From positions 1,814 to 65,813 of the forward strand of contig JACRPH010000003.1 of NCBI GenBank assembly GCA_016214025.1: DNA of 64,000 bases, given 5' to 3'. The notes beneath the pieces are model-generated. The model had not been told where the DNA came from. It saw only the letters and a list, made by a program, of their open reading frames with translations, and ran no database searches. How positions within the stretch are numbered: the stretch's first letter is position 1; each line of letters opens with the position of its first letter. Origin of the DNA: Candidatus Woesearchaeota archaeon. Its GTDB lineage: Archaea > Nanobdellota > Nanobdellia > Woesearchaeales > GW2011-AR9. Below are positions 18,906-44,497 of this stretch, in pieces. The translations under genes and the position numbers were made by a program.

Positions 18906-21350
18906 ATGTCAAAAAAGAGGTCGTTCGGCAGCTCAGGACAGGTAACTATATTCATAATTCTAGGGATATTGCTGCTGTTTGGCTTCCTTTCTATGATGTA
19001 CTTAACCGGCTCCGTTAAACAGGAGCAACTTAAAACTGAACAAACCAAATTTACTTCTAATTTATTTCAGAAAGAAGCCATGCGCCTGTACGTGGAAGAT
19101 TGTTTGGAAGATGAATTAGAAAATGGCTTGATTCTACTGGGAAAACAAGGCCGAATCTGGGAAGATCAGCCGGGCGGAACTAAACCTTATGCAGAAGGAA
19201 AAAACGGAGCCAGTTATGATGGGGAACGGGTATTATTCGGCATCAGTAGAGAAGAATATTCTTCATTTCAGAATGCCTATCCCTGTAACAATGATACTGC
19301 CCCTACTGAATTTTGCCGATATAAGCACCCTGACCTTAAAGTGGGCTTTGGCATTTTAGAACTAAAAGAAAGCACCCTAGAAGAAGACTTACAGCGATAC
19401 TTGATTAACCGCACGTTATGGTGTGTAGAAAACTTTACTAAGAGTAACATCTCTCAAAATGCCGAATTAGTGACTAAAAAGCTAGACTTAACTGTAGATA
19501 TCATCCAAGAAGGAATCAATGTTAAGGTTTACTTTCCGTTAAAGCTTAAAATAGGAAAAGAAGAATTTTCTCAATTAACTCAGTTTGATTTCTTTTATCC
19601 GTCGAGATTTAATGATCTGCTCGACGCTGCCGTAGCTCGCCCCTTGAAAGAGGATTACACTAAAGTAAACTTCAATTATACCCAAAGTTTCTTAGAAAGC
19701 CCCGAATTTGGGTATTATGACACTTATCTTTCATTAGGAGTCCAGATGGAAAAGCAGGAAACATCTAACGGAGATAATTTCTTTAAGTTCACCCCGGTAA
19801 TGTTTAGCGTATTAAATAAGCCGGTGGATTATTCATTCCATATTGCCCGGCAGAATCGGCCTCCAGCGCTGGATTATGTAGAAAGACTCGCCTGTCCTTC
19901 GTTAGGCTATGATTATTTAGTTATCGAAGGAGATAATTCATCATTGGGAGAAATAAACATCACCTTGAATGCTTTGGATCCAGATGAAGACGGTTTTAAT
20001 TATAGCTTCAATGAAGTTCTTGCTTCTTGGATTGGAGCAGCGGGTGGTAAGAAGACGATAAATAACTCTAATTTATATGTATCTAAAGATTTGCTTCAAC
20101 AAAATTGGTACAACTTTACTGCCAACGCCACTGACGAACACAACTTAAGCGACTGGCAGACGGTAAGAGTGCTGGTAGATAGACCACTTACAGTAAATGT
20201 AACTTTCTCCTCACCATATGCCGATATTGAAGGGATGAGCGGCGGCGTGGCAATTGTATCCCCTGAAGACCCTGCTTTCATTAACTTAATTCTTCCAAAT
20301 GATTCATTAGTTCCAAATGCTTCACCGCAGATAACTTTGAATTATTCCAATGACGACGGAATTACTGCCTTTGGATACGAAATTCCTTCAGTAGAGATTC
20401 CCATAAGTCCTGATGGCTGTTACAGTTTCCCGCTCAAAACCGGTAAAAAGTGCAAATTAGCTTCTTATGGTGCACCAACAGAAATAATTGGCTTGTTTCC
20501 TGACAATACTTTTGGCTTAGGGCAAACCAATGGTTTACTTAACTTATCTTATTCCATGGACTATTGCAGCAACCTGAACGCGTCTAAGTCGGTAGAAATT
20601 CCAGTATATGTTGCACCCTGTGTTCCACATAAGAATCCAGAACGGCCGTTTGCGTACCCTTATCACATCTACAAATTCTTGGATTATAACTTTACCTTGG
20701 GAAATGGGACTTTTGACCAAAAAGAAACCGGAACTACCACTGGATTCAATCCTTTGGAAGCTACTCACTCTTGTTGTATTGGTGTTCCTGAAAATCCCGG
20801 CGGCTGGAAGCTGGTCGACGAGAATGATCTTAAGAATCCCTGTTTTGTTAATCCGGCTCCGGGCTGTTATGGTGTAATTGCCGATTACTTAAAATTAGAA
20901 AAGAATTATGGTGGTTATGTTCTGGAAAAAGAAATGCAGCTGTGCGACGGAACCAGAGGAAATGTGTGTGAAGGCGGCCCAGCCGGGGAATTATGGGACG
21001 ATAAGCTTACTTGCGGGGAAAACAATAAGAATAAATGCAATGGTATCTCCTCCAAATGTCAAGGGCTTCCCGCGTTTGGATTAATTCCGGACAAAGGCTG
21101 GTGTTATGGCAAGATGGGATGTGAGAAACTTTGTCCATCATCTCAAAGCGTAGTTAGCCTTGATAAATATAACAATGCGCCAACAGAAATGATAAATGCC
21201 CGAGCAAAAAATAACCAACTCCTGAGCGACGGAAAAGAGCTGGGTTTCGTCTGCGGCTGCTCAGGCCATGATGGAAGTACCTGCGACTCCAACTTTAATG
21301 GTTTTTTCAGTGGGAAATGTGACGGTGGAAAATGCAAAGGAGATAATTAA
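18906..21350 (+). CDS. Large Cys-rich secreted protein with a pilin-like N-terminus (814 aa)
   Basis: N-terminus 'MSKKRSFGSSGQVTIFIILGILLLFGF'. The C-terminal third is Cys-rich ('CCIGVPENPGGWKLV', 'CGCSGHDGSTCDSNFNGFFSGKCDGGKCKG'). Confidence 0.6.
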   Translation: MSKKRSFGSSGQVTIFIILGILLLFGFLSMMYLTGSVKQEQLKTEQTKFTSNLFQKEAMRLYVEDCLEDELENGLILLGKQGRIWEDQPGGTKPYAEGKNGASYDGERVLFGISREEYSSFQNAYPCNNDTAPTEFCRYKHPDLKVGFGILELKESTLEEDLQRYLINRTLWCVENFTKSNISQNAELVTKKLDLTVDIIQEGINVKVYFPLKLKIGKEEFSQLTQFDFFYPSRFNDLLDAAVARPLKEDYTKVNFNYTQSFLESPEFGYYDTYLSLGVQMEKQETSNGDNFFKFTPVMFSVLNKPVDYSFHIARQNRPPALDYVERLACPSLGYDYLVIEGDNSSLGEINITLNALDPDEDGFNYSFNEVLASWIGAAGGKKTINNSNLYVSKDLLQQNWYNFTANATDEHNLSDWQTVRVLVDRPLTVNVTFSSPYADIEGMSGGVAIVSPEDPAFINLILPNDSLVPNASPQITLNYSNDDGITAFGYEIPSVEIPISPDGCYSFPLKTGKKCKLASYGAPTEIIGLFPDNTFGLGQTNGLLNLSYSMDYCSNLNASKSVEIPVYVAPCVPHKNPERPFAYPYHIYKFLDYNFTLGNGTFDQKETGTTTGFNPLEATHSCCIGVPENPGGWKLVDENDLKNPCFVNPAPGCYGVIADYLKLEKNYGGYVLEKEMQLCDGTRGNVCEGGPAGELWDDKLTCGENNKNKCNGISSKCQGLPAFGLIPDKGWCYGKMGCEKLCPSSQSVVSLDKYNNAPTEMINARAKNNQLLSDGKELGFVCGCSGHDGSTCDSNFNGFFSGKCDGGKCKGDN

Positions 21351-22451
21351 ATGAAACACAACATACTCTTTTGGGTTGTACCTTTCGCAGTATTAATCTC
21401 TGCTTCTTTTGCTTTAGCCGAAGATGGCTGCTTCACCTACGCTGATAGCCCATTATATTGTAAAACCATTTCCATTGAAGAAGCGCAGGATGAATGCTCA
21501 TTGTATGAAGATTGTACTCTCGAAGCTGCTTTTTCCTCCGGAACTTGTGATGATACTTCTGCTTTCCCTTCCTGCCAGAAAGTCCTGTGCAAAAGCTCTT
21601 GCAGCGAAACTTTCGTAGAAGAATGTTCTGCCGGAATAATTCCCGAGGAGGAGCAGGCAGAATGGTGCTCTCCCGGCTGCTGCAAGTTTTCTTATTCTGA
21701 AGGCGATTTTTGTGAATACAAACCCTCCAAATGGCTGTGCGAAGTAGAAGCCAAGAATAAAAATATCGTTCAATTTAATTTTGGAATTTCTGATGAGGAA
21801 CAATGTGCTGATTCATGTGCAACTGCAACCTCACCCTTAGAGAAAGAAAATGTTCCCATCAAGCCCAGCACCAAAAATATTTCCCAAACCAATCTTACCG
21901 ATACTAACGAAACTGAAACTAACTCTTCCGGATTAGGCTGGTTTTTAGTATTCCTGTTAGTGGTAATCGTAGGAGGAATAATATTTTATTACCGCAAGCT
22001 CATTTCTTTCAACCTAAGTAAATTATCCCCAGAACCAGAAGAGGAATTAGAAGACGTTACGCGCCCACCGAAACCTGAAGACGATGACAGCTTCTCCAAA
22101 ACGTTGTGGAAATATTTGATAAAAGAAAGGCTGAAGCCGCTTACAGCAAAGTATGGGCGCAAAGTTAAAATAAAGCAACGCGAGGAATTCTTGATGGAAA
22201 CCGGCTTAACCGTGGAAAAGGCTCCGGAAACTATCTTTACTAAGTTGAAGAAATTATCCCGGAAGAATAAGCACGCCGAACCTGCTCCTAAACCCAAGCC
22301 AGAAAAGAAAGCATTAGAGCGCTTAAATGAGCTTACTGCCAAGCCCTCAGCAAAGTCAGGTTCTGCTGAAATTCCATTAACTTCTACTAAGCCTAGTTCT
22401 AAGCGCAACGAAGCTCTGGAAGAGTTAAAAAAAGTGGCCAAAGGAAAATAA
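21351..22451 (+). CDS. Type I membrane protein: signal peptide, Cys-rich head, TM, K/E-rich tail (366 aa)
   Basis: 'FWVVPFAVLISASFALA' signal; head includes 'EWCSPGCCKF'; TM 'GWFLVFLLVVIVGGIIFYY'; tail ends 'LEELKKVAKGK'. The head and tail are paralogous to those of the giant protein. Confidence 0.65.
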   Translation: MKHNILFWVVPFAVLISASFALAEDGCFTYADSPLYCKTISIEEAQDECSLYEDCTLEAAFSSGTCDDTSAFPSCQKVLCKSSCSETFVEECSAGIIPEEEQAEWCSPGCCKFSYSEGDFCEYKPSKWLCEVEAKNKNIVQFNFGISDEEQCADSCATATSPLEKENVPIKPSTKNISQTNLTDTNETETNSSGLGWFLVFLLVVIVGGIIFYYRKLISFNLSKLSPEPEEELEDVTRPPKPEDDDSFSKTLWKYLIKERLKPLTAKYGRKVKIKQREEFLMETGLTVEKAPETIFTKLKKLSRKNKHAEPAPKPKPEKKALERLNELTAKPSAKSGSAEIPLTSTKPSSKRNEALEELKKVAKGK

Positions 22452-22510
22452 CTTCTTGATCCAACATACCTCAAATCCCTTTCTCTTTCTCCTGAAACGG
22501 GCTCGGAACA

Positions 22511-22518
22511 TTTATAAA
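22511..22518 (+). promoter_or_regulatory. TATA-like box 28 nt upstream of the giant-protein start
   Basis: 'catttataaacg'. ATG at 22546. Confidence 0.4.
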
Positions 22519-22545
22519 CGATTAAGGTTTTATTCGGGGTATCAG

Positions 22546-25500
22546 ATGACAAGTAAAAAAAGAGGGATGTTTTACGTAGTTTTAGCTTTATGTTTGATAC
22601 TTTTAGCTCCGTTAGCGTTCAACCCCGTTAATGCTGCCGTAAACGGCTGTTATACTTATTCCAAAGCCAGCGAGGATTTATATTGTGCATCAGGCGGAAT
22701 TTTAGAAGATGAAGCTAAAGCGGATTGTGTAAAATATCCTGATTGTAAAATTGACCAACACTTTATTCCTGGCTCTGACTGCAGCGATATCGATGATTGC
22801 AAAGAAATAACCTGTAAAGTTGACTGCAAAACCCACACTTGGGGCAAATGCCAGCAGTTAGCCGGAGCAGGAGTCTCAGATTTAGAAGTGCCTGCCGAGG
22901 AGTATGAGGCGTGGTGTAATCCGGGCTGCTGCAAATTCACCCCCACTAAAGGAGCTAAAGATTTCTGCCAGTTTAATTTGAACCAATATCAATGCACTAA
23001 GCAGGCAGCGTTAAATGGAGTTACTGATTCACAAAAAATCATTTTTGATAATTCTGCTGGGATGAACTTAAACCTCTGTGCCCAGACCATTTGTAAGCTT
23101 CAAATTACTCCCTCTGACTTAACCATTTTTGTTAAAGATAGCAATGAGAAAGGGATTGAAGGAGTTAAAATAGTACTTCAGGGAGAAGCTCAAGAAAAAA
23201 CCACTGATTCTTCGGGAAAAGTAACTTTTTCTAAACTCACACCCAAAACTTATCTGGTAAAAGCAACTAAAGACGGATTTCTTTCTGCTTCTGCTACCAT
23301 TCCGTTAGCTTCAAACCTTTCTAAAACGTATAATTTTACTTTAGTTACCGCCGAGGGAACGGCTTCAGTTTCCGGAACTATAACTGACACCAATGGAGCA
23401 GCACTAAATGGAGCAACCCTGTCTTGGACGGGCGTAACTGAAGGAAAAACTACTGCTGATGCTTCCGGTAAGTTTTCTGCCAGTACTCTTCCCCCCGGAA
23501 CCTATACTTTCACTGCCAGTATCATCGGCTACAAGCCCAGTATTCAGGCTGCCACTTTGGAAGCAAAAGTCCCTGCCACGTTAGACTTTAAATTAGAAAA
23601 AAGCGCCTTGCAGGGCATAACCGGAACCACTTATTTAGATTCCAATGATAATACTGAGCTTGATGCCGGAGACCAACCTATCGCCGGAGCTAAGATTTAT
23701 GTTGATGGAATATTCAAAGGCCTTTCTATCTATCCCGAAGGCAAATTTGAGATTAGTGTGGAAGTAAAAGCTACTGAAGGTAAAGAAACCCATAAGCTTT
23801 CAGCTGTATATCAGGACTACAACGCTGAAATAGAAGTAGAATTAACTAAAGGAGAAACCCTTTCACAGAATTTGCTATTAGTAAGGTATCTGGGCGAATG
23901 CAGTAAAGGTGGCGTTAATGAGCAGAAAGATGTAGAAGCGTTTTATGCCGTTCCCGTTCCTGGAAAGAAAGAAGTGCAGTTAAACTGGAACAAGCCTTGT
24001 CCGGAAGTGATAGGATATGGAATAGAGAAATGTAAAGCAGAAGAGTGTAGCTCTATTCCTCTTCCCCCCACGGCTAACGCTTATACTGACACTGAAGTAG
24101 AATGGGAAGCGGCGTACAGCTATAAAATTTGGGCCGTCTATGATTATGGCTTGTCCAAAAATATGGTCGAACAAGCTATCACTTTAGGCAGTGAATTATG
24201 TGCTGGGCGTTATCACGAGCTAACTGGATGGGAAACGTTCTGCTTTGGCAAAACTCCGGATGAGCGCAAAAAAGTGTGGACCTGCGACGATGGAAATAAA
24301 TTAATTGGCTCCAAAGACTGCGGCGAGATGGACGGCACCGGAGAAAATTATTATTGCGCTAGAGTAGCTGAAGGCGTAGCTGAATGCAAAAATACGGGCT
24401 CGTGCGGATTGTTTGGAAATCCGTTTGGATTATATTATAATTCAGAAATGTGTTATGGCAGTATGGTCGCTGAAGGAGCAAAGCCCGCTAATTACTGTTA
24501 TTATGAATACACCAATACCGTAGTAGAGCAATGCAAATCCTGCACCCAAGTTAATAGCTGTTTTGATTATCAAAGCCAAGATGCATGCGAAGTAAACAGC
24601 TGCCTCAGTAAAGATTGTACCTGGCTCAATGCTGCCCAAAACGAAGAGCCCATCATAGATTACGGTTTAATTCTTCCCGGATTAGTCACGCCCGAAACCG
24701 GAGCAGGCTATTGTGTGGAGAAAGATTATACTAAAGATGATAAATGCTCGTTATGCAGCCCCTCGGCCAGCTTATTTGACAATTATTTTTGCACGGCTCA
24801 AATATGCACCAATTTAGGGAACTGTTTTGCTTCGGCGGGATTAAAATACTGCCAATCCTGCGGCGAAGCCCCCACTAAAGACACTAATTGTTATAGCTAC
24901 GGAAGCAAATTGGAATGCGTAGGCAGCGATGAAGGTGAAGAAGCCGGAATTTACAAAGATCCGTCAGAGCACATAACTGCTTCTAAAGATAAATGCTCGT
25001 GGAAGAGATGCCGCTGGGAAGGGAACTCGGGAACGGATGGCAAGTGCATCAAAGACGGGAATGTAGATGAAGTGGATGACTGCGAAGCCTTTGCAGATGT
25101 GGGCAGCGCTAATACCTGCCGTATGGACAACTCACCACCTAAAACCGTAGTTGAGCCCGCTGGAGTTAACGTTGTTTCTTTGGCTCATCCCAATATCACT
25201 TTCTTTGGGAATGATAAATATCATAAGTACGCGAATCAGCAGAGCGATATGGGTGCACTGGGATATTGTTTAACTTCAGGAGACCCCACTGCATCAGATA
25301 GTTGTGTAAGAGATAATGAAGGGAATTCTGCGTTCATTGAAGTCCCCTATGCCGGAAAGCTCCCCGAAGAATATCTTACCGTAGATTTAATCAATTCAAA
25401 ATATCTTGCTGGGCAAAGCATTGAAGGAGACACCTATAAATTAAAATTTTATTCTCAGGACAAATATTTCAATCAGGAAGACCTTCAAGAAACGTTTGTG

Positions 25501-34311: not shown

Positions 34312-34377
34312 AACGCTAACTTATTTTGAGAGAGTATAAAAAGTTTTTGATGGGGTTTTTATAATATTCGGCCCTCT

Positions 34378-36040: not shown

Positions 36041-36041
36041 T

Positions 36042-37025: not shown

Positions 37026-38178
37026 TTTCTTTACCAAATAATGTTTCGTAATATTGGGTAGCAATTGTTTCGGGAGACAAATATTTTTTAATACTGCTTA
37101 AAGATGGTTTCTCATTCTTTTTATTGTTTTGCCAGATGAAATATCTTTCTCGTAATTTATTAATAAACTTTTTTTTGTTACCTAACTTTATTAAAGTGAA
37201 ATATTTTGGGTCATAGTATTTTAATACAATTCTGGTTCCGGGGACATCATAGCAAATGATATGCATTCCAGAACAACAAGCTTCAAGTATTGAGTTACAA
37301 AATCCTTCTCGATAGGAGGTAAAAAGAAATATATCTGCTATTTTATATATCATTGGCATGTCTTTTTCGTTAAATGGTCCGATGAATCTAATGTTTTGTA
37401 TGTTCTTATTTTCAACAAGTTTTTTGATTTTTTTTAAATATTTTTTACCCAAATAACAATCGATACCAACAATGAATAAAGTCCCTTTAATTTTTGACCT
37501 GTTCCAAATATCAATTAAATCTTCTAAGTGTTTAATTGGGTCTAATCTTCCCGTCCAGAGTGCAATGAATTCTTTTTCTTTAACACCTAATCTTTTTTGA
37601 AAAACCAATCCCTTTTTCTGCGAATCATTGGCAAATCTCTGGAGGTCTAATAAGTTTGGGATGTAACGGCAAGAAATATTATATTTATTACACCCATTTA
37701 TTTCTTTTTTGATTTCCGGGTTGATGGCAATTATTTTTTTAACATTACTAATCTTCTTTAAGCGAGCCTCCCTGCCATAGATAACATCAAAGAAATCTTT
37801 ACTTGTAGCTATCCTAAGGAAAATTTCTTTTCCAAAATTAGATAACTCTTTGATTAAGTTAAGTTGATCATCAATCAGAGTTTCATATTCTAAACCAATA
37901 ATTAATATTTTTCTGATGTTTAAATTCTTACTTAATTTGGTAGCTTTCTTCCAAAAAGTTTTTCTTTTCCCGCCAATTCTTATTATTTTAATTCCCCCAT
38001 CTAATTTTTGCTTAACTGTTTCCCTTCCTTCCTCTGGTCCAGGTACGATAAAAGTAATATCCCCATTGTAAAATTTTTTAAGAGACCTGTACAATCTATA
38101 AGTAAAATTTTGTAAACCCCCGTATGTGGGAAAGAAATACTGCGGGATTATTATCAACTCATTCTTTTGTTTTATCAT
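37018..38178 (-). CDS. GT4-family (GT-B) glycosyltransferase
   Basis: N-terminus 'IIPQYFFPTYGGLQNF' and C-terminus 'FLFTSYREGFCNSILEACCSGMHIICYDVPG' (EX7E region). Confidence 0.75.
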   Translation of the reverse strand: MIKQKNELIIIPQYFFPTYGGLQNFTYRLYRSLKKFYNGDITFIVPGPEEGRETVKQKLDGGIKIIRIGGKRKTFWKKATKLSKNLNIRKILIIGLEYETLIDDQLNLIKELSNFGKEIFLRIATSKDFFDVIYGREARLKKISNVKKIIAINPEIKKEINGCNKYNISCRYIPNLLDLQRFANDSQKKGLVFQKRLGVKEKEFIALWTGRLDPIKHLEDLIDIWNRSKIKGTLFIVGIDCYLGKKYLKKIKKLVENKNIQNIRFIGPFNEKDMPMIYKIADIFLFTSYREGFCNSILEACCSGMHIICYDVPGTRIVLKYYDPKYFTLIKLGNKKKFINKLRERYFIWQNNKKNEKPSLSSIKKYLSPETIATQYYETLFGKENE

Positions 38179-38298: not shown

Positions 38299-38392
38299 TG
38301 GTTAAAAACTATCGTAAGGTTTATATAGAAACTTTCTTTTGTCATTCTTTAAATAATAGTCATAAAGCTAAATCAAAAGAGGTGCATGGAAA

Positions 38393-38734
38393 ATGGGTTC
38401 TAAGAAAGGGATGGAGATGTCCATAAGCGTAATTATCGTAGCCGTACTAGCTTTAGTTATATTAGTAGTGTTGCTGGCTATTTTTATGGGGAAAATAACT
38501 GGGTTTGAGAAAGGAGTAAGCAAAGAGGCCCAGACCGAATTAATTACGATGAAGATAACCTATGGTAATTGCCGTCCTTTGGCTAGTGCAGAAACCGCCT
38601 TTACCACCGATTTAAGCAAAGCGGAAACCGATGATGCCAAAGAATTTATCAAAGCCAATTTTAAAGACGCTATTAGCTCGTGCAAGACCAACACTGAAAA
38701 AGCCAACTGTGCCGGGAATTGCGTGTGGGGTTAA
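38393..38734 (+). CDS. Small pilin-like protein with a Cys-containing C-terminus (113 aa)
   Basis: N-terminus 'MGSKKGMEMSISVIIVAVLALVILVVLLAIF'. C-terminus 'SSCKTNTEKANCAGNCVWG'. TATA-like 'tttatata' at 38320-38327. Confidence 0.55.
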   Translation: MGSKKGMEMSISVIIVAVLALVILVVLLAIFMGKITGFEKGVSKEAQTELITMKITYGNCRPLASAETAFTTDLSKAETDDAKEFIKANFKDAISSCKTNTEKANCAGNCVWG

Positions 38735-38763: not shown

Positions 38764-39072
38764 ATGAATAAAAAAGCTGACGCCAATATGTGGTGGATAA
38801 TCATTGGAGCAGTGATAGCTTTAGTGGTGCTGATAATCCTGATGGTGATATTTACCACGAAGACCGGAAAATTGGAAGGGGGGTTGTCTGAATGCGGGGG
38901 TAAGAGTGGTGTGTGTGTGTCCGGGGGCATCTGTCCAAAGTCTACGTTAGAATCATCAGCATTTACTTGTAGCAGTTCTTCTGCTATCTGCTGTATTGGC
39001 TCGCCCAAGAAAAGCCCGTGTAATTCTGTTGATGAATATGAAGGCGAAGGCGGTTATTGCTTTGGAAAGTGA
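38764..39072 (+). CDS. Small pilin-like Cys-rich protein (102 aa; alternative start 38749)
   Basis: N-terminus 'MNKKADANMWWIIIGAVIALVVLIILMVIF'. C-terminus has 9 Cys ('CGGKSGVCVSGGICP...AICCIG'). Confidence 0.55.
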   Translation: MNKKADANMWWIIIGAVIALVVLIILMVIFTTKTGKLEGGLSECGGKSGVCVSGGICPKSTLESSAFTCSSSSAICCIGSPKKSPCNSVDEYEGEGGYCFGK

Positions 39073-39074
39073 GA

Positions 39075-39206
39075 ATGCTTAACAAAAAAGGCGTGGATTG
39101 GAGCAGTCCGGAAACACTGGTGACGATTTTGCTAATCGTTTTATTGGCTTTAATTTTCTTTTTTGTATTCATTCGCGGGAAAATAGGAGGAATACTTAAA
39201 ATATGA
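39075..39206 (+). CDS. Micro-ORF (43 aa) with a pilin-like N-terminus; not in the supplied ORF track
   Basis: Hand translation 'MLNKKGVDWSSPETLVTILLIVLLALIFFFVFIRGKIGGILKI*'. Its TGA overlaps the next ATG as ATGA (39203-39206). Confidence 0.45.
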   Translation: MLNKKGVDWSSPETLVTILLIVLLALIFFFVFIRGKIGGILKI

Positions 39207-39367
39207 ATAAAAAAGCGGGTTTATGGAAAAGCAAAAAAGGGATGGAAATGTGGATGTTGGTGCTGATGATATTAGCAATTATATTATTATTATTTGTATT
39301 AGGATGGTATTATGGATTGAGTAAAAGCGGTGGAAGTCTGCTGGACAAGGTGAGTAATCTGCTATGA
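39203..39367 (+). CDS. Micro-ORF (54 aa) with a pilin-like N-terminus; not in the supplied ORF track
   Basis: Hand translation 'MNKKAGLWKSKKGMEMWMLVLMILAIILLLFVLGWYYGLSKSGGSLLDKVSNLL*'. ATGA overlap with the next gene at 39364-39367. Confidence 0.45.
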   Translation: MNKKAGLWKSKKGMEMWMLVLMILAIILLLFVLGWYYGLSKSGGSLLDKVSNLL

Positions 39368-40137
39368 ATATGGCTTGGAATAAAATTGGTACTATTGTCA
39401 TTGCGGTAGTAGTGATGCTTATATTGTGGGCAATTTATTTTCCAAGTGGAGGAATGTTTGACAATCTAAAAGAACTAGTTAAAGGAGTAGCAGAATATGC
39501 CCCGAACGTTTCTATTGGAATGAACGAGTTGAACGCTTCCGGGGTAGCCCTTCCCGGAGAACAAGGCGCAGAAGTTAGTGCATTAAAATCAGCCATAGAA
39601 GGTATGCTTTCCAGCAACAAAACCAACTGCTTTGGCAGCTTTGGCGGGTTTGAGAGTGAACTTGGAAACAGTGACAAATCAACTAATATTAATATCTATT
39701 ACAACAATGATCCTCAATCTATGAAGATAGTTATATCTAATCAAAATGGGCAGGTATATAAAATATTCAACTTTAATAATACGCACCCGTGTGTGATTGC
39801 CGGGAGAAGTAATGAAGCAAAGAATTTCTATGCTCATTATATTGACGGAGAGCAATTAGTAAGTCCTTATTCTAGCACCGTCCAAGGCTTAACTATTTTT
39901 TATCAGAAAGAATGGACGAGCTATAACGGAAATACGATAAGAGTTATGGGTTGGCCAGAAGATGGCCCAGTTAATGATGAGGGAAATAATTTTGACAATA
40001 GTGGATTACTGTTTAAAGGGGGGGGCAATGAAATTTGTTTCTTTCCAACTAATAAACATATTAATGCTGACGATGATGGAATAGAAGATGATTACGTTAA
40101 ACAGCTAAAAGAGGATGGAGCTAATCTTTGCTCATAA
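39364..40137 (+). CDS. N-terminally anchored secreted protein (257 aa)
   Basis: N-terminus 'MNMAWNKIGTIVIAVVVMLILWAIYF'. Confidence 0.5.
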   Translation: MNMAWNKIGTIVIAVVVMLILWAIYFPSGGMFDNLKELVKGVAEYAPNVSIGMNELNASGVALPGEQGAEVSALKSAIEGMLSSNKTNCFGSFGGFESELGNSDKSTNINIYYNNDPQSMKIVISNQNGQVYKIFNFNNTHPCVIAGRSNEAKNFYAHYIDGEQLVSPYSSTVQGLTIFYQKEWTSYNGNTIRVMGWPEDGPVNDEGNNFDNSGLLFKGGGNEICFFPTNKHINADDDGIEDDYVKQLKEDGANLCS

Positions 40138-40141: not shown

Positions 40142-41128
40142 ATGTTATTCAAACTCTCCAAAAAAGGCATGGAAGCGGGATTTTTAGTAGTCTTAATCAT
40201 AACTATTGCTTCATTCATACTTATTGCTGGCGTAGTAATGCGGTTTATGTCTTCGGCTGATGATAAGGAAGCAGAAATTTTGTGCCATGATAGTGTTTTA
40301 ATGCGGGCGCAAAGTGTAGTAAATATTGACACTACTTTAGCTGATGCAGAAATTAAAATAGTTCCAACCATGTGTAAAACCATCGACAAAAAGATTAAGG
40401 GCGATAGAGAAGAGCTGAAACGCCAGATAGCAGATAAAATGGCTCGCTGCTGGTGGATGTTTGGTGAAGGAAAGTATGAAGAAATACTGGCTGGCTCTAA
40501 TGTTGATGTGCTTCCTTCGGTGTTTGGGACGGAAAATCAGGAAAATCAGTGTTTTAACTGCTACAATTTAATGATTGATGAAGATAAGATTGAGGGAGGA
40601 TCTATTACTGGAACGGAGATGAACGAGTTTATGTACAACGAAAAATATTCCCGAACTAATGCTACCTACATGGAATACATCCAAAGTTATGGTGGGCCGG
40701 GAAGAGTGGTATTTACTGCAGCCGATATTTCACCCAGAGAAGCGTATGCTCTGTCTTTCCTGCCCAAAAATAAAGAATATGACGAGAAGTCTTTTTGGTC
40801 GGGGGTAGGAAAAGTAGTTATAGGTGGGGCGGTAGTAATTGGGGTCGCTGCCGGAGCGGTTTGTATTGTTAGTACTGCTGGAATATGCACTGCTGTCGTT
40901 GGACCTTTAGCTGCGGTGGCCACGGGAACAACAGGAATCGGGCTGACTATACTGGCCGCCCCCACAACCGTCGCAGTAGGAACTGCCGCCGCTGCAGTAA
41001 TAGCTACTACCGGCTATTGGGATATCATGGATGGAATGTACGCTGAGCGGGAGGTTAGTTCAGTTTATGTGGGATATTTGGCTGTAGGAGAGAAAATGTG
41101 CGGCTCTGGTGACATCGCAGGAGAATAA
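40142..41128 (+). CDS. Pilin-like N-terminus plus a Gly/Ala/Val-rich C-terminal membrane region (328 aa)
   Basis: From ATG 40142: 'MLFKLSKKGMEAGFLVVLIITIASFILIAGVV'. C-terminus 'VVIGGAVVIGVAAGAVCIVSTAGICTAVVGPLAAVATGTTGIGLTILAAP'. Confidence 0.5.
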   Translation: MLFKLSKKGMEAGFLVVLIITIASFILIAGVVMRFMSSADDKEAEILCHDSVLMRAQSVVNIDTTLADAEIKIVPTMCKTIDKKIKGDREELKRQIADKMARCWWMFGEGKYEEILAGSNVDVLPSVFGTENQENQCFNCYNLMIDEDKIEGGSITGTEMNEFMYNEKYSRTNATYMEYIQSYGGPGRVVFTAADISPREAYALSFLPKNKEYDEKSFWSGVGKVVIGGAVVIGVAAGAVCIVSTAGICTAVVGPLAAVATGTTGIGLTILAAPTTVAVGTAAAAVIATTGYWDIMDGMYAEREVSSVYVGYLAVGEKMCGSGDIAGE

Positions 41129-41158
41129 ATAATAAAAAATAAAAAGGTGAAACATAAC

Positions 41159-41467
41159 ATGAAACTTTCAACCAAAGCCGATGCCAACATGTGGTGGATA
41201 ATTGCCATTGCTATTTTAGTTTTACTAGTGGTAATCCTTATACTAATGTGGTTCCGAGGAAGCGGCGATAGGGCTTTTGGAGAGGTCGGTAAGAAGATTG
41301 GCAACTTAGAAGATTGCGATAATGATAACGTCGCTAATATGTGGGATAAATGCCCATGTGCTCCTGCCGGAAACAATCCTGAATTTGAAGGCTGTCCTGA
41401 TTCAATTAAAAAAGATGCCCCTAAAGAGACCCCTGAGTTTACCAATAAAGATTGTTGCAGTAAGTAA
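41159..41467 (+). CDS. Small pilin-like Cys-rich protein (102 aa)
   Basis: From ATG 41159 (SD-like 'aggtga' upstream): 'MKLSTKADANMWWIIAIAILVLLVVILILMWF'. 'DCDNDNVANMWDKCPCAPAG' resembles the TSP3-like repeat in the giant protein. Confidence 0.55.
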   Translation: MKLSTKADANMWWIIAIAILVLLVVILILMWFRGSGDRAFGEVGKKIGNLEDCDNDNVANMWDKCPCAPAGNNPEFEGCPDSIKKDAPKETPEFTNKDCCSK

Positions 41468-41493
41468 AAATAAAATAATTAAAAAGATGCCCC

Positions 41494-42156
41494 ATGAACA
41501 AAAAAGCTATAATGGTTTCGTTTTTAACTACGCTTATTCTAGCTTTAATCATCTTCGTTCCGGCGTGCATGGGGGTGTCCAAGTTTTTCCGCTTGAGCGA
41601 CCAGGCTAAAGATAATTTTAACAATTTTGTAAAAGAGATCCAATCGCTGGCAAAAGATGGAAAAGAAGGCGAGAATCGCAATGATGTATTGATATTAGAC
41701 CAAGCCACCGCCGCAGTTTATTTTGAGCCGAATTCAGAAGAGGTTAAAGTAGAAGTAAATGCAGATTTTTGGTCGTGGAACTTTCCTACCGATTACACCA
41801 TTTATATTAAACCTCCGGGAAAGTGCGAAAAGGGAAAAGGGTGCTTATGTTTAATTCGCAAAGCCAAGTTTGATGCTACGTGGTGGGAACTGGCCCCTAG
41901 TAAAGTAATAATAACCGAGGATACCTCCACCCCTGCTATTTGTAAAACAGTTGACACTAAATTGATATTAAGCAAATGTGGAATTGGTGTTCCTACTAAA
42001 GTTAAGTCTTACACTTGCTCCGGCGGGTTTATGATAGAAAGGCAACTAGCTAAAGATTCCAGTTGGATTACCGTTTCTTACTACGAAGCCAATCGCAGAA
42101 CCTTCTTCGTTCTAACTAAAGCCGGAGATTCCATCAAGCTTACCCCCCAAACATGA
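41494..42156 (+). CDS. Class III signal peptide (pilin-like) protein
   Basis: N-terminus 'MNKKAIMVSFLTTLILALIIFVPAC'. Confidence 0.5.
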   Translation: MNKKAIMVSFLTTLILALIIFVPACMGVSKFFRLSDQAKDNFNNFVKEIQSLAKDGKEGENRNDVLILDQATAAVYFEPNSEEVKVEVNADFWSWNFPTDYTIYIKPPGKCEKGKGCLCLIRKAKFDATWWELAPSKVIITEDTSTPAICKTVDTKLILSKCGIGVPTKVKSYTCSGGFMIERQLAKDSSWITVSYYEANRRTFFVLTKAGDSIKLTPQT

Positions 42157-42557
42157 ACCGCAAAGCTTCTTCAATTCTGGTAATGATTATAGAAATCCTC
42201 GCCGTATTAGTGGTAGGAGTGATGATAACCAAGTATGCAGTTACTATTGCCCATTCCGAGACGGTAACTAAAATTAATTTGGCTAACAATTTACAGATGA
42301 TGATGAATACGTTAGTAGCCACTCCCGGAGATGCAGTAGTGGCATACCCTTACAATGCGTCTAAATTTAATTTGATTTTATCCCAAAGCAGCGTTACGGT
42401 AACTCAGCCTAACGATTTAAATGTAGAAAAGATAATTCGAGGGTTTAATCTTCCTGCGGGTTATGAAGCATTAGGTGTATTAGAACAGAAAGATAAAGCA
42501 TGCTTGGAAAAAAAATCAACTCGGATAATCTTAAGGGAATGCAATACCGGTGAATAA
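42153..42557 (+). CDS. Class III signal peptide (pilin-like) protein
   Basis: N-terminus 'MNRKASSILVMIIEILAVLVVGVMI'. 4-nt overlap with the upstream gene. Confidence 0.5.
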   Translation: MNRKASSILVMIIEILAVLVVGVMITKYAVTIAHSETVTKINLANNLQMMMNTLVATPGDAVVAYPYNASKFNLILSQSSVTVTQPNDLNVEKIIRGFNLPAGYEALGVLEQKDKACLEKKSTRIILRECNTGE

Positions 42558-42562
42558 TAAAA

Positions 42563-43039
42563 ATGTCAGAAGGCATGTTTGATTTTACCCGAAAAACCAT
42601 CTTTTGGACGCTTGCCGGAGTAGTTATTACTATTGTCGTATTTGCATTTGTGTTAGGAATTAGCGGTTATTTGAATAAATTGACTTACGTTCCGGAGAAA
42701 TTGCGGGCAGAGTTTATTTCGTTGCGTTTCGCCAATATTCCCGAGTGTTTTGCATATCAAGACCCAGAAACCGGCAGAGTTTATCCCGGAATTATTGACC
42801 TTTCCAAATTTACCAATGACCAGATGAATTTAAGCTGTTATCACACTGAATCGGAAAAAGGCTATGAAGAGCATAATTTCCGGTTGAAACTAATGAAAAA
42901 CGGAGCAGAAGTGCGTTCCAACAATTACTTCCATAAAGACAGTTTTACTTTATTCAGGAAAGTGTTGGTTAAAATGAATAACACTAATCAGACTCTTACT
43001 GAAGATGAGATGTACATATTCGTACAGGTGAAAATATGA
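42563..43039 (+). CDS. N-terminally anchored protein (158 aa)
   Basis: N-terminus 'MSEGMFDFTRKTIFWTLAGVVITIVVFAFVLG'. Confidence 0.45.
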   Translation: MSEGMFDFTRKTIFWTLAGVVITIVVFAFVLGISGYLNKLTYVPEKLRAEFISLRFANIPECFAYQDPETGRVYPGIIDLSKFTNDQMNLSCYHTESEKGYEEHNFRLKLMKNGAEVRSNNYFHKDSFTLFRKVLVKMNNTNQTLTEDEMYIFVQVKI

Positions 43040-43338
43040 TTCAATCCAAAAAAGCCATGATGGACGACCTGTTTGATTTCCTGTTTTTAGTAATTGTAAT
43101 GATGTTTATCATGTTTTATTTTCAAGTGAGCGTTATTGGGGCCATAGATAAGAAGAACGAGCAAAGCTTGGTGTTAGCAGATAGGAACGGAAAGGTGGAT
43201 GATTATTTAATTCAGAATAGAATTGATTTAGAGCACAATAAAACAATCGAAACCGAAATGCTTAATACCAAAGTTAAGGAAATTTATGCCGGGAAAGATA
43301 ACCTGCCATTGCTGCCGGACAGCGCGTTGAGGTCGTAG
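43036..43338 (+). CDS. Class III signal peptide (pilin-like) protein (100 aa)
   Basis: N-terminus 'MIQSKKAMMDDLFDFLFLVIVMMFIMFYF'. 4-nt overlap upstream. Confidence 0.5.
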   Translation: MIQSKKAMMDDLFDFLFLVIVMMFIMFYFQVSVIGAIDKKNEQSLVLADRNGKVDDYLIQNRIDLEHNKTIETEMLNTKVKEIYAGKDNLPLLPDSALRS

Positions 43339-43339
43339 C

Positions 43340-44497
43340 ATGAACAAAACCGCAGCCGTATTCCATTGGATTGTGTTTATTGTGCTGGCAGCCATGGCTT
43401 TAATCTACATTTTTAGTGCAGATTTAGAAATAGCCGAGTACAAAGGGGCGTGGCAGTTAAGCTATTTGAGGGCATTTCAAGCTTCCGAGAAAAATTTATT
43501 ATTTTTAGACCAAGAAATGACCCAAAACGCGGAGAAAGTAGCTAAAAACTTACCCGCAGCATTATTTTCTTCTGAGCTAGGCTGTGGAATGTATGAAAGC
43601 ATCGCAGTGTGGAATAAAAAGAGTGATTTCTGTCTGATTGAGCCGGAAAAGAAGTTTGTGGAAGCGTTTAAAGCGTTGCTAGGGGAGAAAGAAGCCATGT
43701 ATTCTAATTTTACAGTAGGAGTTAATGAAATTGTGGGAATAAGTCAAAATAAAAGCATCGTTGGCTCTTCGTTAGACTTAATCCCTACCGAAAGAAGGTC
43801 AGCCACTTGGTTTACTTCATATGACGCATTTACCATCAAGCCTTTTTACCTGAAATACGAATATGCTCCTAGTTTTAGAGTCAAAGTTAATTTGAGTTTT
43901 GAAGAGTACAAAGAGTTAGAGGTCCAAGCTAAGAAGTTGGTGGGAAAATGCCAGAATGAGCCGGAATTAAAATCCTGCCTGGAACAGAACAAAAATAAAG
44001 CATGGAAGTTAGGCTCGTGTGGTTCAGAAAGTTATTCTAATGCTGCTCGAAAAGTGTTATTTTGCACTTTAATTAAAGCTCAAGAAACTAAGTTTGCTCT
44101 TGATTTCACTTCAGAGAAAGTTTCGCCCCCTTCAGATGTAGATGCGGAAGCGGTAGCTGACGGCTTTTTAATTACTTTCCCTCAAAATGAGCTGGCAGAT
44201 TCTTATGTAATTCATTATACTGATTGGAGCATTGCACCGCAGAAAGTGCCGAATACTGCTGATAATATCTTTTTTGGAGTTCCTACATTTAATTTGTATC
44301 AACAGGTGGCTTTAATTCCTCCTGCTGATGAAAACTGTCCCGTAGATAAGTTACCCGGAGAGACATATTTGTGTTCGGGGAAGATAAATTACATACTTGA
44401 CGATGCCCAATTAACTTCAGGAATGTATGTGGGGGTAGCTGCAGTTAAAGATGGAGTAGAATCGCAGATAAATGAGTTTGTGGTTATATCTTCTTAA
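43340..44497 (+). CDS. N-terminally anchored secreted protein (385 aa), last gene of the locus
   Basis: N-terminus 'MNKTAAVFHWIVFIVLAAMALIYIF'. Confidence 0.5.
   Translation: MNKTAAVFHWIVFIVLAAMALIYIFSADLEIAEYKGAWQLSYLRAFQASEKNLLFLDQEMTQNAEKVAKNLPAALFSSELGCGMYESIAVWNKKSDFCLIEPEKKFVEAFKALLGEKEAMYSNFTVGVNEIVGISQNKSIVGSSLDLIPTERRSATWFTSYDAFTIKPFYLKYEYAPSFRVKVNLSFEEYKELEVQAKKLVGKCQNEPELKSCLEQNKNKAWKLGSCGSESYSNAARKVLFCTLIKAQETKFALDFTSEKVSPPSDVDAEAVADGFLITFPQNELADSYVIHYTDWSIAPQKVPNTADNIFFGVPTFNLYQQVALIPPADENCPVDKLPGETYLCSGKINYILDDAQLTSGMYVGVAAVKDGVESQINEFVVISS

What the first reader, a model, noticed from the sequence alone, without database searches (positions are those of the whole stretch)
18906..44497. 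25-kb locus of ~17 pilin-like genes plus giant Cys-rich surface proteins, with no assembly machinery in view
Seen in sequence:
- About 20 same-strand ORFs are packed with 0-30 nt gaps or ATGA/4-nt overlaps.
- At least 14 start with M-x(1-6)-[KR][KRT][AG] followed by about 20 hydrophobic residues. Examples: KKAQMEMIGIVVIV, KRAQLEVTFNWV, KKAQMHITETIG, KKGMEMSISVIIV, KKADANMWWIII, TKADANMWWIIA, KKGMEAGFLVV, KKAIMVSFL, RKASSILVMII, KKAMMDDLFDF.
- Five of them place Q directly after the A/G.
- Even the DNA start context 'atgaa(c/t)aaaaaagc' recurs.

Established knowledge: this is the architecture of archaeal class III (type IV pilin-like) signal peptides, which are cut by PibD/FlaK/EppA-type peptidases. 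Q at +1 is characteristic of EppA-type pilins.

The small proteins are interleaved with an 814-aa, a 366-aa, a 2163-aa and a 597-aa Cys-rich exported protein. No FlaI/PilB-type ATPase, FlaJ/PilC-type platform or prepilin peptidase is in the window.

Inference: this is a dedicated multi-subunit surface structure, either a filament decorated with adhesins or a host-attachment apparatus of an episymbiotic archaeon. I cannot match its composition to the archaellum, Aap/Ups/Epd pili or bindosome operons.
Basis: partly seen in the sequence, partly recalled or inferred. Interest (0 to 1): 0.85.

Follow-up and report, generated by a model that had tools for sequence, protein, structure and literature searches.

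The report
Conserved pilin-like surface-structure operon in Woesearchaeota
This is a roughly 20-gene cluster, kept in the same order in about 80 species of the uncultured DPANN group Woesearchaeota, that encodes some 15 pilin-like membrane proteins and several giant adhesins; it is probably the structural kit of a previously undescribed pilus-type attachment apparatus.

Summary
The window comes from a Candidatus Woesearchaeota MAG. Between 18906 and 44497 it carries 21 tightly packed + strand genes, and 15 of them start with a short Lys-rich leader ending in G/A, followed by a hydrophobic helix. The same rule finds only one such N-terminus elsewhere in the window, and that one is Sec-like.

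New findings:
- The gene order 814-366-2163-194-383-175-184-113-102-(43-54)-257-328-102-220-134-158-100-385-RPA is conserved in about 80 species-level genomes.
- The 597-aa Cys-repeat protein and a five-gene minus-strand island (33694-38178) are insertions private to this genome.
- The leader motif is conserved across orthologues.
- Six families have a conserved Gln at +1 and N-terminal helices far more conserved than their globular parts.
- Two 40-50 aa peptides resemble Flp/EpdE pilins, which lack a globular domain.
- The 814-aa protein is a long helix followed by cadherin/BIg-like adhesin domains.
- The 383-aa protein is a long helix followed by a fold with no PDB match.

No family matches a curated pilin model, and a FlaFind-style motif fails for 19 of 20 proteins. 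No ATPase, platform or peptidase lies in the window or within 10 kb of the marker gene in 80 genomes, although the literature reports flaI/J/K in Woesearchaeota.

Best reading: a new variant of a type IV filament system. Cleavage and assembly are untested.

The parts
18906..21350 (+). g814: leader KKR...SSG|QVTIF, a long N-terminal helix, tandem Ig/cadherin-like domains and a Cys-rich C-terminal domain. Putative pilin-anchored adhesin.
   Evidence: 161 homologues, all unnamed. In alignment A2, Q12 is at least 90% conserved and many Cys and a DPDED-type motif are invariant. AF2 model: pLDDT 82, helix 12-81. Foldseek hits SiiE BIg, protocadherin EC1-4 and an RTX adhesin at E 1e-7 to 1e-5.
21351..22451 (+). 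g366: type I membrane protein with a Sec signal, a roughly 130-aa Cys-rich ectodomain, a TM segment at 194-212 and a K/E/P-rich cytoplasmic tail.
   Evidence: TM scan, and BLASTP against g2163 giving E = 3e-19 over the N-terminal domain. Found at the same position in at least 30 loci.
22546..29037 (+). g2163: giant type I membrane adhesin. It has a Sec signal (VNA|A), the same Cys-rich tip domain as g366, CarboxypepD_reg/Ig-like repeats, a TM segment at 1990-2008 and a cytoplasmic tail that shares an IF(T/S)xLKxLSxK motif with g366.
   Evidence: Pfam CarboxypepD_reg E = 9.5e-32. TM segments and paralogy. Present in 78 loci.
29034..30827 (+). g597: lipobox-like signal (LLTSC) and about 20 repeats with Cys spacing alternating 12/14. 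A lineage-specific insertion, not a conserved member of the system.
   Evidence: No homologue in 80 related loci. Cys spacing. No Pfam hit.
30857..31441 (+). g194: pilin-like, MNKKA|MGVG|QVF..., with a strongly conserved helix.
   Evidence: Present in 82 loci. Helix identity 0.69 against 0.47 for the rest of the protein.
31444..32595 (+). g383: the largest pilin-like subunit, KRA|QLEVTFNW..., with a 47-residue N-terminal helix and a globular domain of novel fold.
   Evidence: A1: Q8, W15 and Y17 are invariant. AF2 model: pLDDT 87.6, pTM 0.82. No PDB or BFVD match below E = 0.04. The family has 1631 clusters at 50% identity.
32597..33124 (+). g175: pilin-like, KKA|QMHITET...
   Evidence: Gln at +1 in 67 of 68 orthologues and Glu at +6 in 66 of 68. 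Helix identity 0.71 against 0.46.
33134..33688 (+). g184: pilin-like, KKA|QMEMIG..., with 8 Cys.
   Evidence: Gln at +1 in 58 of 68 orthologues and Glu at +3 in 57 of 68. Helix identity 0.75 against 0.43.
33694..38178 (-). Not part of the system. A low-GC insertion of five genes: two histidine phosphatases, a radical SAM, a radical SAM with SPASM domain, and a GT1 glycosyltransferase.
   Evidence: Pfam. GC 0.30-0.32. Absent from the related loci; this junction carries other, unrelated cargo in 12 of 59 genomes.
38319..38326 (+). TTTATATA, an archaeal TATA-box-like element about 67 nt upstream of the g113 start codon. Putative promoter of block B.
   Evidence: Read directly from the sequence. 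Function is inferred.
38393..38734 (+). g113: small pilin-like protein (orthologue consensus KKG|QGLSLNVIIVAALALIVLVVL) with a 4-Cys C-terminal domain. Candidate abundant subunit.
   Evidence: A3. Gln at +1 in 51 of 58 orthologues. Helix identity 0.77 against 0.39. Pilin_N only at E = 0.018.
38764..39072 (+). g102a: small pilin-like protein, KKA|DANMWWIIIGAV..., with an 8-Cys C-terminal domain.
   Evidence: Present in 57 loci. Helix identity 0.71 against 0.40.
39075..39206 (+). g43: 43-aa peptide, KKG|VDWSSPETLV..., with no globular domain (Flp/EpdE-like).
   Evidence: A peptide of this type lies between g102a and g257 in most loci.
39203..39367 (+). g54: 54-aa peptide, KKG|MEMWMLVLMIL..., with no globular domain (Flp/EpdE-like).
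   Evidence: The KKG|MEMWQLV... type is conserved in most loci.
39364..40137 (+). g257: N-terminally anchored protein without the KK[GA] motif.
   Evidence: Present in 51 loci. Helix identity 0.25, similar to the rest of the protein at 0.33.
40142..41128 (+). g328: KKG|MEAGF... anchor plus two Gly/Ala-rich hydrophobic segments near the C-terminus (225-243 and 270-288).
41159..41467 (+). g102b: TKA|DANMWWIIA..., a small Cys-rich protein. Orthologues in some genomes reach about 500 aa.
41494..42156 (+). g220: KKA|IMVSFL... The only protein that passes the strict FlaFind-style regex.
42153..42557 (+). g134: RKA|SSILVMII...
42563..43039 (+). g158: N-terminal anchor (TRKTIFWTLAGVV) without the motif.
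43036..43338 (+). g100: KKA|MMDDLFDF..., with Asp at +3 conserved.
43340..44497 (+). g385: KTA|AVFHWIVF... (orthologue consensus KKG|A...). Last gene of the conserved array.
   Evidence: Present in 41 loci. Followed by an RPA gene in 22 loci, median gap 85 nt.

Best explanation
The locus is the structural-gene supercluster of a type IV filament (pilus-like) surface apparatus specific to Woesearchaeota. The proposed steps are all inferred.
1. Most products insert into the membrane through a class-III-type signal, and an A24-family prepilin peptidase encoded elsewhere removes the short Lys-rich leader after the G/A.
2. Six subunits with Gln at +1 and strongly conserved N-terminal helices (g814, g194, g383, g175, g184, g113), together with g102a, pack helix to helix into a filament core or tip complex. 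The four consecutive genes g194-g383-g175-g184 would act like a minor-pilin priming complex. g814 would be a modular pilin that displays cadherin/BIg-like adhesin domains.
3. Small subunits build the shaft: g113, g102a, or the 40-50 aa peptides g43 and g54, which resemble Flp/EpdE pilins.
4. The block B proteins, whose anchors are less conserved, serve as membrane-anchored accessory or stator-type parts.
5. Two type I giants (g2163 and g366) share a Cys-rich tip domain and cytoplasmic tails and act as co-adhesins.
6. Extrusion is driven by a FlaI/PilB-type ATPase and a FlaJ/PilC platform encoded at another locus.

The likely use is attachment to a host cell or a surface.
For: Shown:
- 15 N-termini fit the motif, against one Sec-like hit in the rest of the window.
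- K-K-[GA] is conserved across orthologues in 14 of 17 families.
- Gln at +1 is invariant in g383, nearly invariant in g814, and present in 85-99% of g113, g184 and g175 orthologues. Gln at +1 is reported to be essential for EppA processing (PMC4390842).
- N-terminal helices are 0.69-0.77 identical while the rest of the same proteins is 0.39-0.47 identical, in g194, g383, g175, g184, g113 and g102a. That is the opposite of what plain anchors show.
- Acidic residues at +2, +3 or +6 are conserved in g184, g175, g100, g54 and g43.
- AF2 models show helices of 47 and 70 residues projecting from globular parts.
- g814 has adhesin-like folds.
- Two peptides without a globular domain are conserved in nearly all loci.
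- Gene order is strict in about 80 species-level genomes, and 122 genomes encode the marker g383.
- The gene array sits between housekeeping genes, with TBP, ThiI and RNase P p30 upstream and RPA and YdjM downstream.

From the literature:
- flaI, flaJ and flaK homologues are reported in Woesearchaeota genomes, and an A24 prepilin peptidase is listed for AR15 (PMC5994134).
- TFF 'System 1' is reported in DPANN, with many pilins and a major pilin that lacks a globular domain (bioRxiv 10.64898/2026.04.22.720090).
Against: - No protein matches a curated pilin or class III model; the best is Pilin_N at E = 0.018 in one of 19 g113 members.
- Profile searches of PDB sequences find nothing.
- The FlaFind-style regex passes 1 of 20 proteins. 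A polar or acidic spacer of 2-8 residues usually separates the G/A from the hydrophobic core.
- The confident g383 model has no pilin-like structural neighbour.
- No T2SSE-type ATPase lies in the window or within 10 kb of g383 in any of 80 genomes.
- Block B helices are no more conserved than the rest of those proteins.
- One preprint states that type IV pilus components are missing from DPANN genomes (10.1101/2020.05.14.094862).
- Whether this MAG has the ATPase, platform and peptidase could not be checked.
Confidence: 0.55

Rival explanations
1. The proteins are uncleaved, N-terminally anchored (signal-anchor) membrane proteins. Together with the type I giants they form a non-filamentous envelope complex, for example a scaffold for the space beneath the S-layer or a cell-cell junction. 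The Lys-rich leader would then reflect only the positive-inside rule and AT-rich start codon usage.
For: - No pilin family match.
- The FlaFind-style motif fails for 19 of 20 proteins.
- No assembly ATPase lies nearby in 80 genomes.
- Block B anchors are conserved no better than the ectodomains.
- Sixteen families have unrelated globular parts, which suggests a heteromeric complex rather than a homopolymer.
- g2163 and g366 have cytoplasmic tails.
Against: - The positive-inside rule does not explain a G/A conserved exactly after the Lys pair in 14 families.
- It does not explain a near-invariant Gln at the next position in six families.
- It does not explain helices conserved much better than the ectodomains in seven proteins.
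- It does not explain the conserved 40-50 aa peptides that consist of the helix alone.
Confidence: 0.22
2. The locus encodes a short pseudopilus-type machine that moves things across the envelope, analogous to the T2SS or the Com pilus, rather than an adhesive filament. A Woesearchaeote that cannot make nucleotides might use it to take up DNA or to deliver proteins to a host.
For: - There are many distinct 'minor pilin'-like subunits and no obvious single major pilin.
- An RPA/SSB gene follows the array in 22 loci, with a median gap of 85 nt.
- DprA is present in the window at 5859-6776.
Against: - RPA is an essential replication protein, and the whole neighbourhood is syntenic, so the adjacency may carry no functional meaning.
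- DprA lies in a variable region that other loci do not share.
- No ComEC-like channel or secretin-like part is present in the locus.
- Large adhesin-fold proteins fit adhesion better.
Confidence: 0.12
3. The locus is an integrated virus or other mobile element that encodes envelope or attachment proteins.
For: - Variable, defence- or mobile-type genes lie directly upstream in this window: nucleotidyltransferases, RhuM, Bro-N and AlbA_2.
- Insertions occur inside the locus.
Against: - The gene order and the housekeeping flanks are the same in about 80 species-level genomes.
- No capsid, integrase or replication gene is present.
- The g383 model has no match in BFVD.
- The GC content of the + strand genes equals that of the flanks.
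Confidence: 0.02

Closest known systems
Epd pilus of Methanococcus maripaludis (archaeal TFF 'System 1', EppA-processed pilins)
   Same: - Several distinct pilin-like proteins sit in one operon.
- The cleavage motif is K-G/A followed by Gln at +1.
- The candidate major pilin lacks a globular domain.
- Adhesin-domain proteins are present in the cluster.
- System 1 is reported in DPANN.
   Different: - The Epd cluster has 11 genes and includes the ATPase and two platform genes. This locus has about 19 conserved structural genes and none of those.
- No protein matches Class_IIIsignal/DUF361 or Pilin_N.
- A polar or acidic spacer follows the cleavage site.
Bacterial Tad/Flp pili
   Same: - The candidate subunits are very short (40-50 aa) and consist of little more than the helix.
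- An acidic residue lies near the mature N-terminus.
   Different: - There is no G/XXXXEY motif.
- There are no TadA/B/C, CpaC or TadV genes in the locus.
- The host is an archaeon.
- There are far more accessory pilin-like proteins.
Minor-pilin tip complexes of bacterial T4P/T2SS (PilVWX-FimU, GspH-K) and modular pilins such as Streptococcus sanguinis PilB
   Same: - Four adjacent genes encode distinct pilin-like proteins, and one of them is much larger (g383).
- A pilin-type helix is fused to adhesin domains in g814. The modular-pilin concept comes from PMC8179133, seen only as a title and abstract.
   Different: - No sequence or structural similarity was detected.
- The analogy is architectural only.
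- No complex was modelled.
Giant Ig/cadherin-repeat adhesins (SiiE, RTX adhesins)
   Same: - The middle of g814 matches SiiE BIg and cadherin EC repeats by Foldseek at E = 1e-7.
- g2163 has CarboxypepD_reg/Ig-like repeats.
   Different: - g814 is anchored by a pilin-like N-terminal helix and g2163 by a C-terminal TM segment with a cytoplasmic tail, not by T1SS secretion.
- The Cys-rich terminal domains have no known family.

Membership tests
Type IV filament (TFF) pilins / class III signal peptide proteins | A short, positively charged leader ending in G/A, directly before a hydrophobic helix of about 20 residues. | tested here: met
   15 window proteins fit. The motif is conserved across orthologues in 14 of 17 families.
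Type IV filament (TFF) pilins / class III signal peptide proteins | A match to curated N-terminal pilin models (Pfam Pilin_N PF07790, Class_IIIsignal PF04021, Flp; NCBIfam archaeal pilin models). | tested here: not met
   The best hit is Pilin_N at E = 0.018, 16 bits against a cut-off of 25.2, for g113 only. One of 19 g113 orthologues hits it. NCBIfam finds nothing.
Type IV filament (TFF) pilins / class III signal peptide proteins | The FlaFind-type cleavage pattern [KRDE][GA][ALIFQMVED][ILMVTAS]x3. The regex was recalled from memory, not taken from the program. | tested here: not met
   Only g220 passes. Among orthologues, 0-47% pass depending on the family.
Type IV filament (TFF) pilins / class III signal peptide proteins | A long N-terminal alpha-1 helix that projects from a globular domain. 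| tested here: met
   AF2 models show helix 15-61 in g383 and helix 12-81 in g814. The small proteins were not modelled.
Type IV filament (TFF) pilins / class III signal peptide proteins | A globular domain with a known pilin fold (bacterial alpha-beta roll or archaeal Ig-like sandwich). | tested here: inconclusive
   g383 has no PDB neighbour below E = 0.04 and no pilin among the top 50 hits. g814 has Ig-like domains, but of adhesin type. The other proteins were not modelled.
Type IV filament (TFF) pilins / class III signal peptide proteins | The leader is removed by an A24 prepilin peptidase. | not testable with these tools
   This needs proteomics or a cleavage assay.
Type IV filament (TFF) pilins / class III signal peptide proteins | A cognate ATPase, platform protein and prepilin peptidase in the same genome. 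| not testable with these tools
   All three are absent from the window and from within 10 kb of g383 in 80 genomes. The rest of the genomes could not be read. The literature reports flaI/J/K and an A24 peptidase in other Woesearchaeota.
Epd pilus / TFF System 1 | Gln at +1, the EppA substrate signature. | tested here: met
   g383 invariant; g175 99%; g113 88%; g184 85%; g814 at least 90%; g194 has Gln at its second possible site.
Epd pilus / TFF System 1 | The ATPase and two platform genes lie inside the pilin cluster. | tested here: not met
   None is present in the window or in 80 related loci.
Epd pilus / TFF System 1 | A major pilin without a globular domain. | tested here: inconclusive
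   Two conserved 40-50 aa peptides have the right architecture. Homology to EpdE could not be tested.
Archaellum | Archaellin (FlaB), FlaF/G, FlaH, FlaI and FlaJ genes. | tested here: not met
   No archaellin or Fla family hit in Pfam or NCBIfam.
Cadherin/BIg-repeat adhesins (for g814) | Tandem beta-sandwich repeats of the cadherin/BIg type. | tested here: met
   Foldseek hits 2yn5_B at E = 1e-7 and protocadherins at about E = 1e-6, with probability 1.0. An invariant Asp-rich motif is present in A2. This shows fold-level similarity only; no Pfam hit was found.

The most novel reading that the evidence does not exclude
The array encodes a previously unseen archaeal surface organelle. In this reading it is a heteromeric structure built from more than 15 different single-copy pilin-like subunits with novel globular folds. 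It is coupled to two type I giants whose cytoplasmic tails link it to the cell interior. It serves as the host-contact or feeding apparatus of Woesearchaeota. It may also be assembled in a way that departs from the canonical ATPase, platform and single major pilin scheme.
Probability: 0.2. Interest if true: 0.9.

Novelty: new variant of a known kind. Interest (0 to 1): 0.7.

Why it matters
Woesearchaeota are among the most widespread DPANN archaea. None has been described in pure culture, and how they contact partners is unknown. One groundwater study even used the supposed absence of type IV pilus genes from DPANN genomes to assign piliated ultra-small cells to CPR bacteria.

A gene array of about 19 genes, in strictly conserved order and vertically inherited, encoding pilin-like proteins and adhesins, gives concrete candidates for the attachment apparatus. 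It also provides:
- a marker family (g383, more than 1,600 clusters at 50% identity) for tracing the apparatus;
- at least one confident new fold;
- a set of proteins for antibodies, metaproteomic N-terminal mapping and cryo-ET interpretation.

It would also extend the known range of type IV filament systems. This one has an unusually large number of distinct subunits, and its structural genes are fully separated from the motor genes.

Tried and rejected
- Pfam and NCBIfam scans of all locus proteins and of 19 g113 orthologues found no pilin, Flp, class III or archaellin family.
- Profile searches of PDB sequences with the g383 and g113 alignments found nothing.
- Foldseek of the g383 model against PDB and BFVD found nothing below E = 0.04.
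- An all-against-all hhalign of the globular parts of 16 families gave no paralogy; the best probability was 6.5%. The idea of one pilin family expanded by duplication is therefore rejected.
- A Walker-A regex search for T2SSE ATPases in 80 loci gave one hit, which is ABC-like.
- I tried to reach the remainder of the source contig through an end gene and retrieved only a 2.5-kb Logan contig.
- A background test for G/A after the last Lys in other anchored proteins was uninformative. The 'other' set turned out to be divergent locus members.
- The word-indexed homologue search with g113 found only 8 close relatives, none of them named.
- Literature searches found no description of this gene array in the library searched.
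- The viral or mobile-element reading is rejected on synteny.
- I could not obtain a Woesearchaeota ATPase or peptidase sequence to test co-occurrence with the locus on the same contigs.

Full report
**Source and layout**

The 383-aa product of 31444-32595 is identical to HZC30_00455 of a Candidatus Woesearchaeota MAG. The 814-aa product of 18906-21350 is identical to HZC30_00430.

The flagged interval holds two runs of + strand genes: block A (18906-33688) and block B (38393-44497). Intergenic gaps run from -4 to about 30 nt. Between the two blocks lie five minus-strand genes (33694-38178) with GC of 0.30-0.32, against 0.38-0.42 around them. These encode two histidine phosphatases, two radical SAM proteins (one with a SPASM domain) and a GT1 glycosyltransferase.

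**Check of the observation**

A mechanical rule looked for [KR][GA] within the first 18 residues, then an uncharged 18-mer with mean Kyte-Doolittle hydropathy of at least 2.0 starting within 10 residues. It finds 13 locus genes. It finds one protein in the remaining roughly 40 kb, on either strand, and that one has a Sec-type VFA|Q site. Reading the sequences adds g43, g134 and g814. g257 and g158 are N-terminally anchored but lack the motif.

The start context ATGAAYAAAAAAGC occurs five times, against 0.24 expected, and always at a locus start codon. The large proteins are Cys-rich, with 26, 16, 81 and 43 Cys.

No ATPase, platform or peptidase family appears in Pfam scans of the rest of the window. 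Those scans found DNA methylases, DprA, nucleotidyltransferases, AlbA_2 proteins, an S-layer protein, Bro-N, RhuM, RPA, YdjM, ScpB, a lamin-tail-domain protein and others. GyrA was recognised from its sequence only and was not scanned.

**Conservation**

A scan of one genome per GTDB species with an alignment of g383 relatives found 122 genomes encoding a relative, and 80 loci were retrieved with 10-kb flanks. BLASTP of the window proteins against all ORFs of these loci gives a single gene order wherever the contig reaches far enough: 814-366-2163-194-383-175-184-113-102a-(43-54)-257-328-102b-220-134-158-100-385-RPA. The same order, with Pfam annotation, appears on a 1.56-Mb scaffold.

Three window features have no counterpart in the other loci:
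- the 597-aa Cys-repeat protein;
- the nucleotidyltransferase at 18341-18904;
- the minus-strand island.

The g184|g113 junction has a median gap of 140 nt. In 12 of 59 genomes it carries 1-5 kb of unrelated cargo, mostly on the opposite strand. Blocks A and B are therefore probably separate transcription units. In the window, a TTTATATA element lies about 67 nt before the g113 start codon.

Upstream of g814, three other genomes carry a further Sec-signal giant of 1590-1774 aa, followed by RNase P p30, ThiI and TBP. The window lacks that giant, but it keeps a 32-aa fragment resembling its C-terminus at 62343-62438 on the minus strand. The array is chromosomal and vertically inherited, not mobile.

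The g383 family has 1631 clusters at 50% identity with E at most 1e-3 among 1.84 billion representatives. The distant members that carry a name are still labelled Woesearchaeota or Nanoarchaeota.

**Evidence on the nature of the proteins**

*For a pilin-type nature*

- Orthologue alignments keep K-K-[GA] at the same place in 14 of 17 families.
- Gln follows the G/A in six families:
  - g383: invariant in 18 diverse sequences;
  - g814: at least 90%;
  - g175: 67 of 68;
  - g184: 58 of 68;
  - g113: 51 of 58;
  - g194: Gln at a second G|Q site.
- In Methanococcus maripaludis, Gln at +1 is reported to be essential for processing by the pilin-specific peptidase EppA (PMC4390842).
- In g194, g383, g175, g184, g113 and g102a, the 24-residue N-terminal helix is 0.69-0.77 identical between orthologues, while the rest of each protein is 0.39-0.47 identical. 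This pattern is expected for helices that pack specifically, as in filament cores. It is not expected for plain anchors.
- Acidic residues at fixed positions near the predicted mature N-terminus are conserved in g184 (E+3), g175 (E+6), g100 (D+3), g54 (E+2) and g43 (D+2).
- AlphaFold2 with orthologue alignments gives confident models. In g383 (pLDDT 87.6, pTM 0.82), a 47-residue helix is followed by beta strands and a helical domain. In g814 (pLDDT 82), a 70-residue helix is followed by beta-rich domains.
- Nearly every locus has two ORFs of 40-50 aa between g102a and g257: KKG|VDWSSPETLV... and KKG|MEMWQLV.... They consist of leader, helix and a short tail. The bacterial Flp pilin and the Epd major pilin have the same build. 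The latter is described as lacking a globular domain in a 2026 preprint on archaeal TFF systems.

*Against membership of known pilin families*

- No curated model is matched.
- PDB sequence profiles give nothing.
- The FlaFind-type regex, as I recall it, passes only g220, because 2-8 polar or acidic residues usually separate the G/A from the hydrophobic core.
- The g383 globular part has no structural neighbour in PDB or BFVD.
- The globular parts of the 16 families are unrelated to each other by profile-profile comparison. This is not one pilin family amplified by duplication.
- Block B proteins from g257 to g385 have helices no better conserved than their ectodomains. They may be accessory anchored proteins rather than filament subunits.

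**The large proteins**

The middle of g814 matches tandem BIg and cadherin repeats: SiiE at E = 1e-7, and protocadherin EC1-4 and an RTX adhesin at E 1e-6 to 1e-5. It also has an invariant Asp-rich motif and many invariant Cys.

g2163 and g366 are type I membrane proteins. Each has a Sec signal, a shared N-terminal Cys-rich domain of about 130 aa (E = 3e-19), one TM segment near the C-terminus, and K/E/P-rich cytoplasmic tails of about 150 aa with a shared terminal motif. g2163 also has CarboxypepD_reg repeats.

**The missing motor**

No T2SSE-type Walker A protein occurs in any of the 80 loci. Upstream flanks in three further genomes hold only housekeeping genes. I could not read the rest of any genome.

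The literature is divided:
- One groundwater preprint says type IV pilus components are missing in DPANN genomes.
- A comparative study of 19 Woesearchaeota genomes reports flaI, flaJ and flaK.
- The supplementary BLAST table of that study lists 'Peptidase A24A prepilin type IV' in the complete AR15 genome, beside the A-type ATPase operon, and a FlaJ hit.
- The TFF preprint places System 1 in methanogens and DPANN.

So a motor encoded elsewhere is plausible, but it has not been shown for the genomes that carry this array.

**Most likely mechanism (inferred)**

1. A prepilin peptidase removes the leaders.
2. The subunits with Gln at +1 and conserved helices form a filament core or tip. The four-gene set g194-g383-g175-g184 acts as a priming complex and g814 as a pilin-anchored adhesin.
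3. Small subunits (g113, g102a, or the tiny g43 and g54 peptides) form the shaft.
4. Block B proteins act as membrane-anchored accessory parts.
5. g2163 and g366 act as co-adhesins.
6. A FlaI/FlaJ-type motor encoded elsewhere extrudes the structure.

I give this reading a confidence of 0.55. The main rival is an uncleaved, anchored envelope complex (0.22). A pseudopilus for uptake or secretion is a variant (0.12), hinted at only by the conserved RPA neighbour and a non-conserved DprA. A mobile element is essentially excluded (0.02).

**Comparison and novelty**

The closest known system is the Epd pilus (TFF System 1). Shared features are the Gln at +1, many pilin-like genes, a candidate pilin without a globular domain, and adhesin-domain proteins. 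The differences are:
- about 19 conserved structural genes rather than 11;
- no motor genes in the cluster;
- no match to the DUF361/Class_IIIsignal model;
- a polar spacer after the cleavage site;
- novel globular folds.

I found no description of this array in the paper library. I rate it a new variant of a known kind. There is a 0.2 chance that it is a distinct heteromeric organelle.

Noticed in passing
window 33694-38178 (-): A low-GC (0.30-0.32) island of five genes sits inside the operon: two histidine phosphatases, a radical SAM, a radical SAM with SPASM domain, and a GT1 glycosyltransferase. The same g184|g113 junction holds unrelated 1-5 kb cargo in 12 of 59 other genomes, so it is a recurrent insertion hot spot.
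   Followed up: partly
window 29034-30827 (+): A 597-aa protein with a lipobox-like N-terminus (LLTSC) and 43 Cys at alternating 12/14-residue spacing, giving about twenty 26-aa repeats. It has no Pfam hit and no homologue in 80 related loci. Its function is unknown.
   Followed up: partly
window 62343-62438 (-): A 32-aa fragment (...EGLDFLWPQLTGKLRAG*) matches the conserved C-terminus of the 1590-1774 aa Sec-signal giant that lies directly upstream of the g814 orthologue in L002, L084 and L085. It is probably a remnant left by a rearrangement that removed that gene from this genome's locus.
   Followed up: partly
window 4555-18904: The region upstream of the locus is a variable patch of defence- or mobile-type genes: three MNT-like nucleotidyltransferases (4555-5130, 6798-7448, 18341-18904), two AlbA_2/Schlafen plus HATPase_c_4 proteins (7745-9127, 12048-13250), Bro-N (13585-14445), RhuM (15054-16076) and DprA (5859-6776). 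It replaces the housekeeping genes (TBP, ThiI, RNase P p30) found upstream in other genomes.
   Followed up: partly
window 44472-45548 (+), and the gene after g385 in 22 related loci: An RPA-type single-stranded-DNA-binding protein follows the last gene of the array at a median gap of 85 nt in 22 genomes. YdjM lies further downstream both in the window (47530-48081) and in L001. It is unclear whether RPA is co-transcribed with the array or is merely syntenic.
   Followed up: no
window 21351-22451 and 22546-29037, C-terminal tails: The two type I membrane proteins share a cytoplasmic terminal motif, IF(T/S)(K/Q)LK(K/E)LS(R/K)K, at the end of K/E/P-rich tails of about 150 aa. This could be a docking site for a cytoplasmic partner. 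Its conservation across orthologues was not examined.
   Followed up: no
L060, L052 and others; the g102b position in related loci: In several genomes the orthologue of the 102-aa g102b is a protein of about 480-505 aa, with the same N-terminus and a large added Cys-rich C-terminal region. The family therefore gains and loses an ectodomain.
   Followed up: no
window 9533-11932 (+) and 56503-58710 (-): Two further exported proteins lie outside the locus: a 799-aa S-layer-family protein (S_layer_C, E = 5e-16) and a 735-aa protein with a Sec signal and a lamin tail domain.
   Followed up: no
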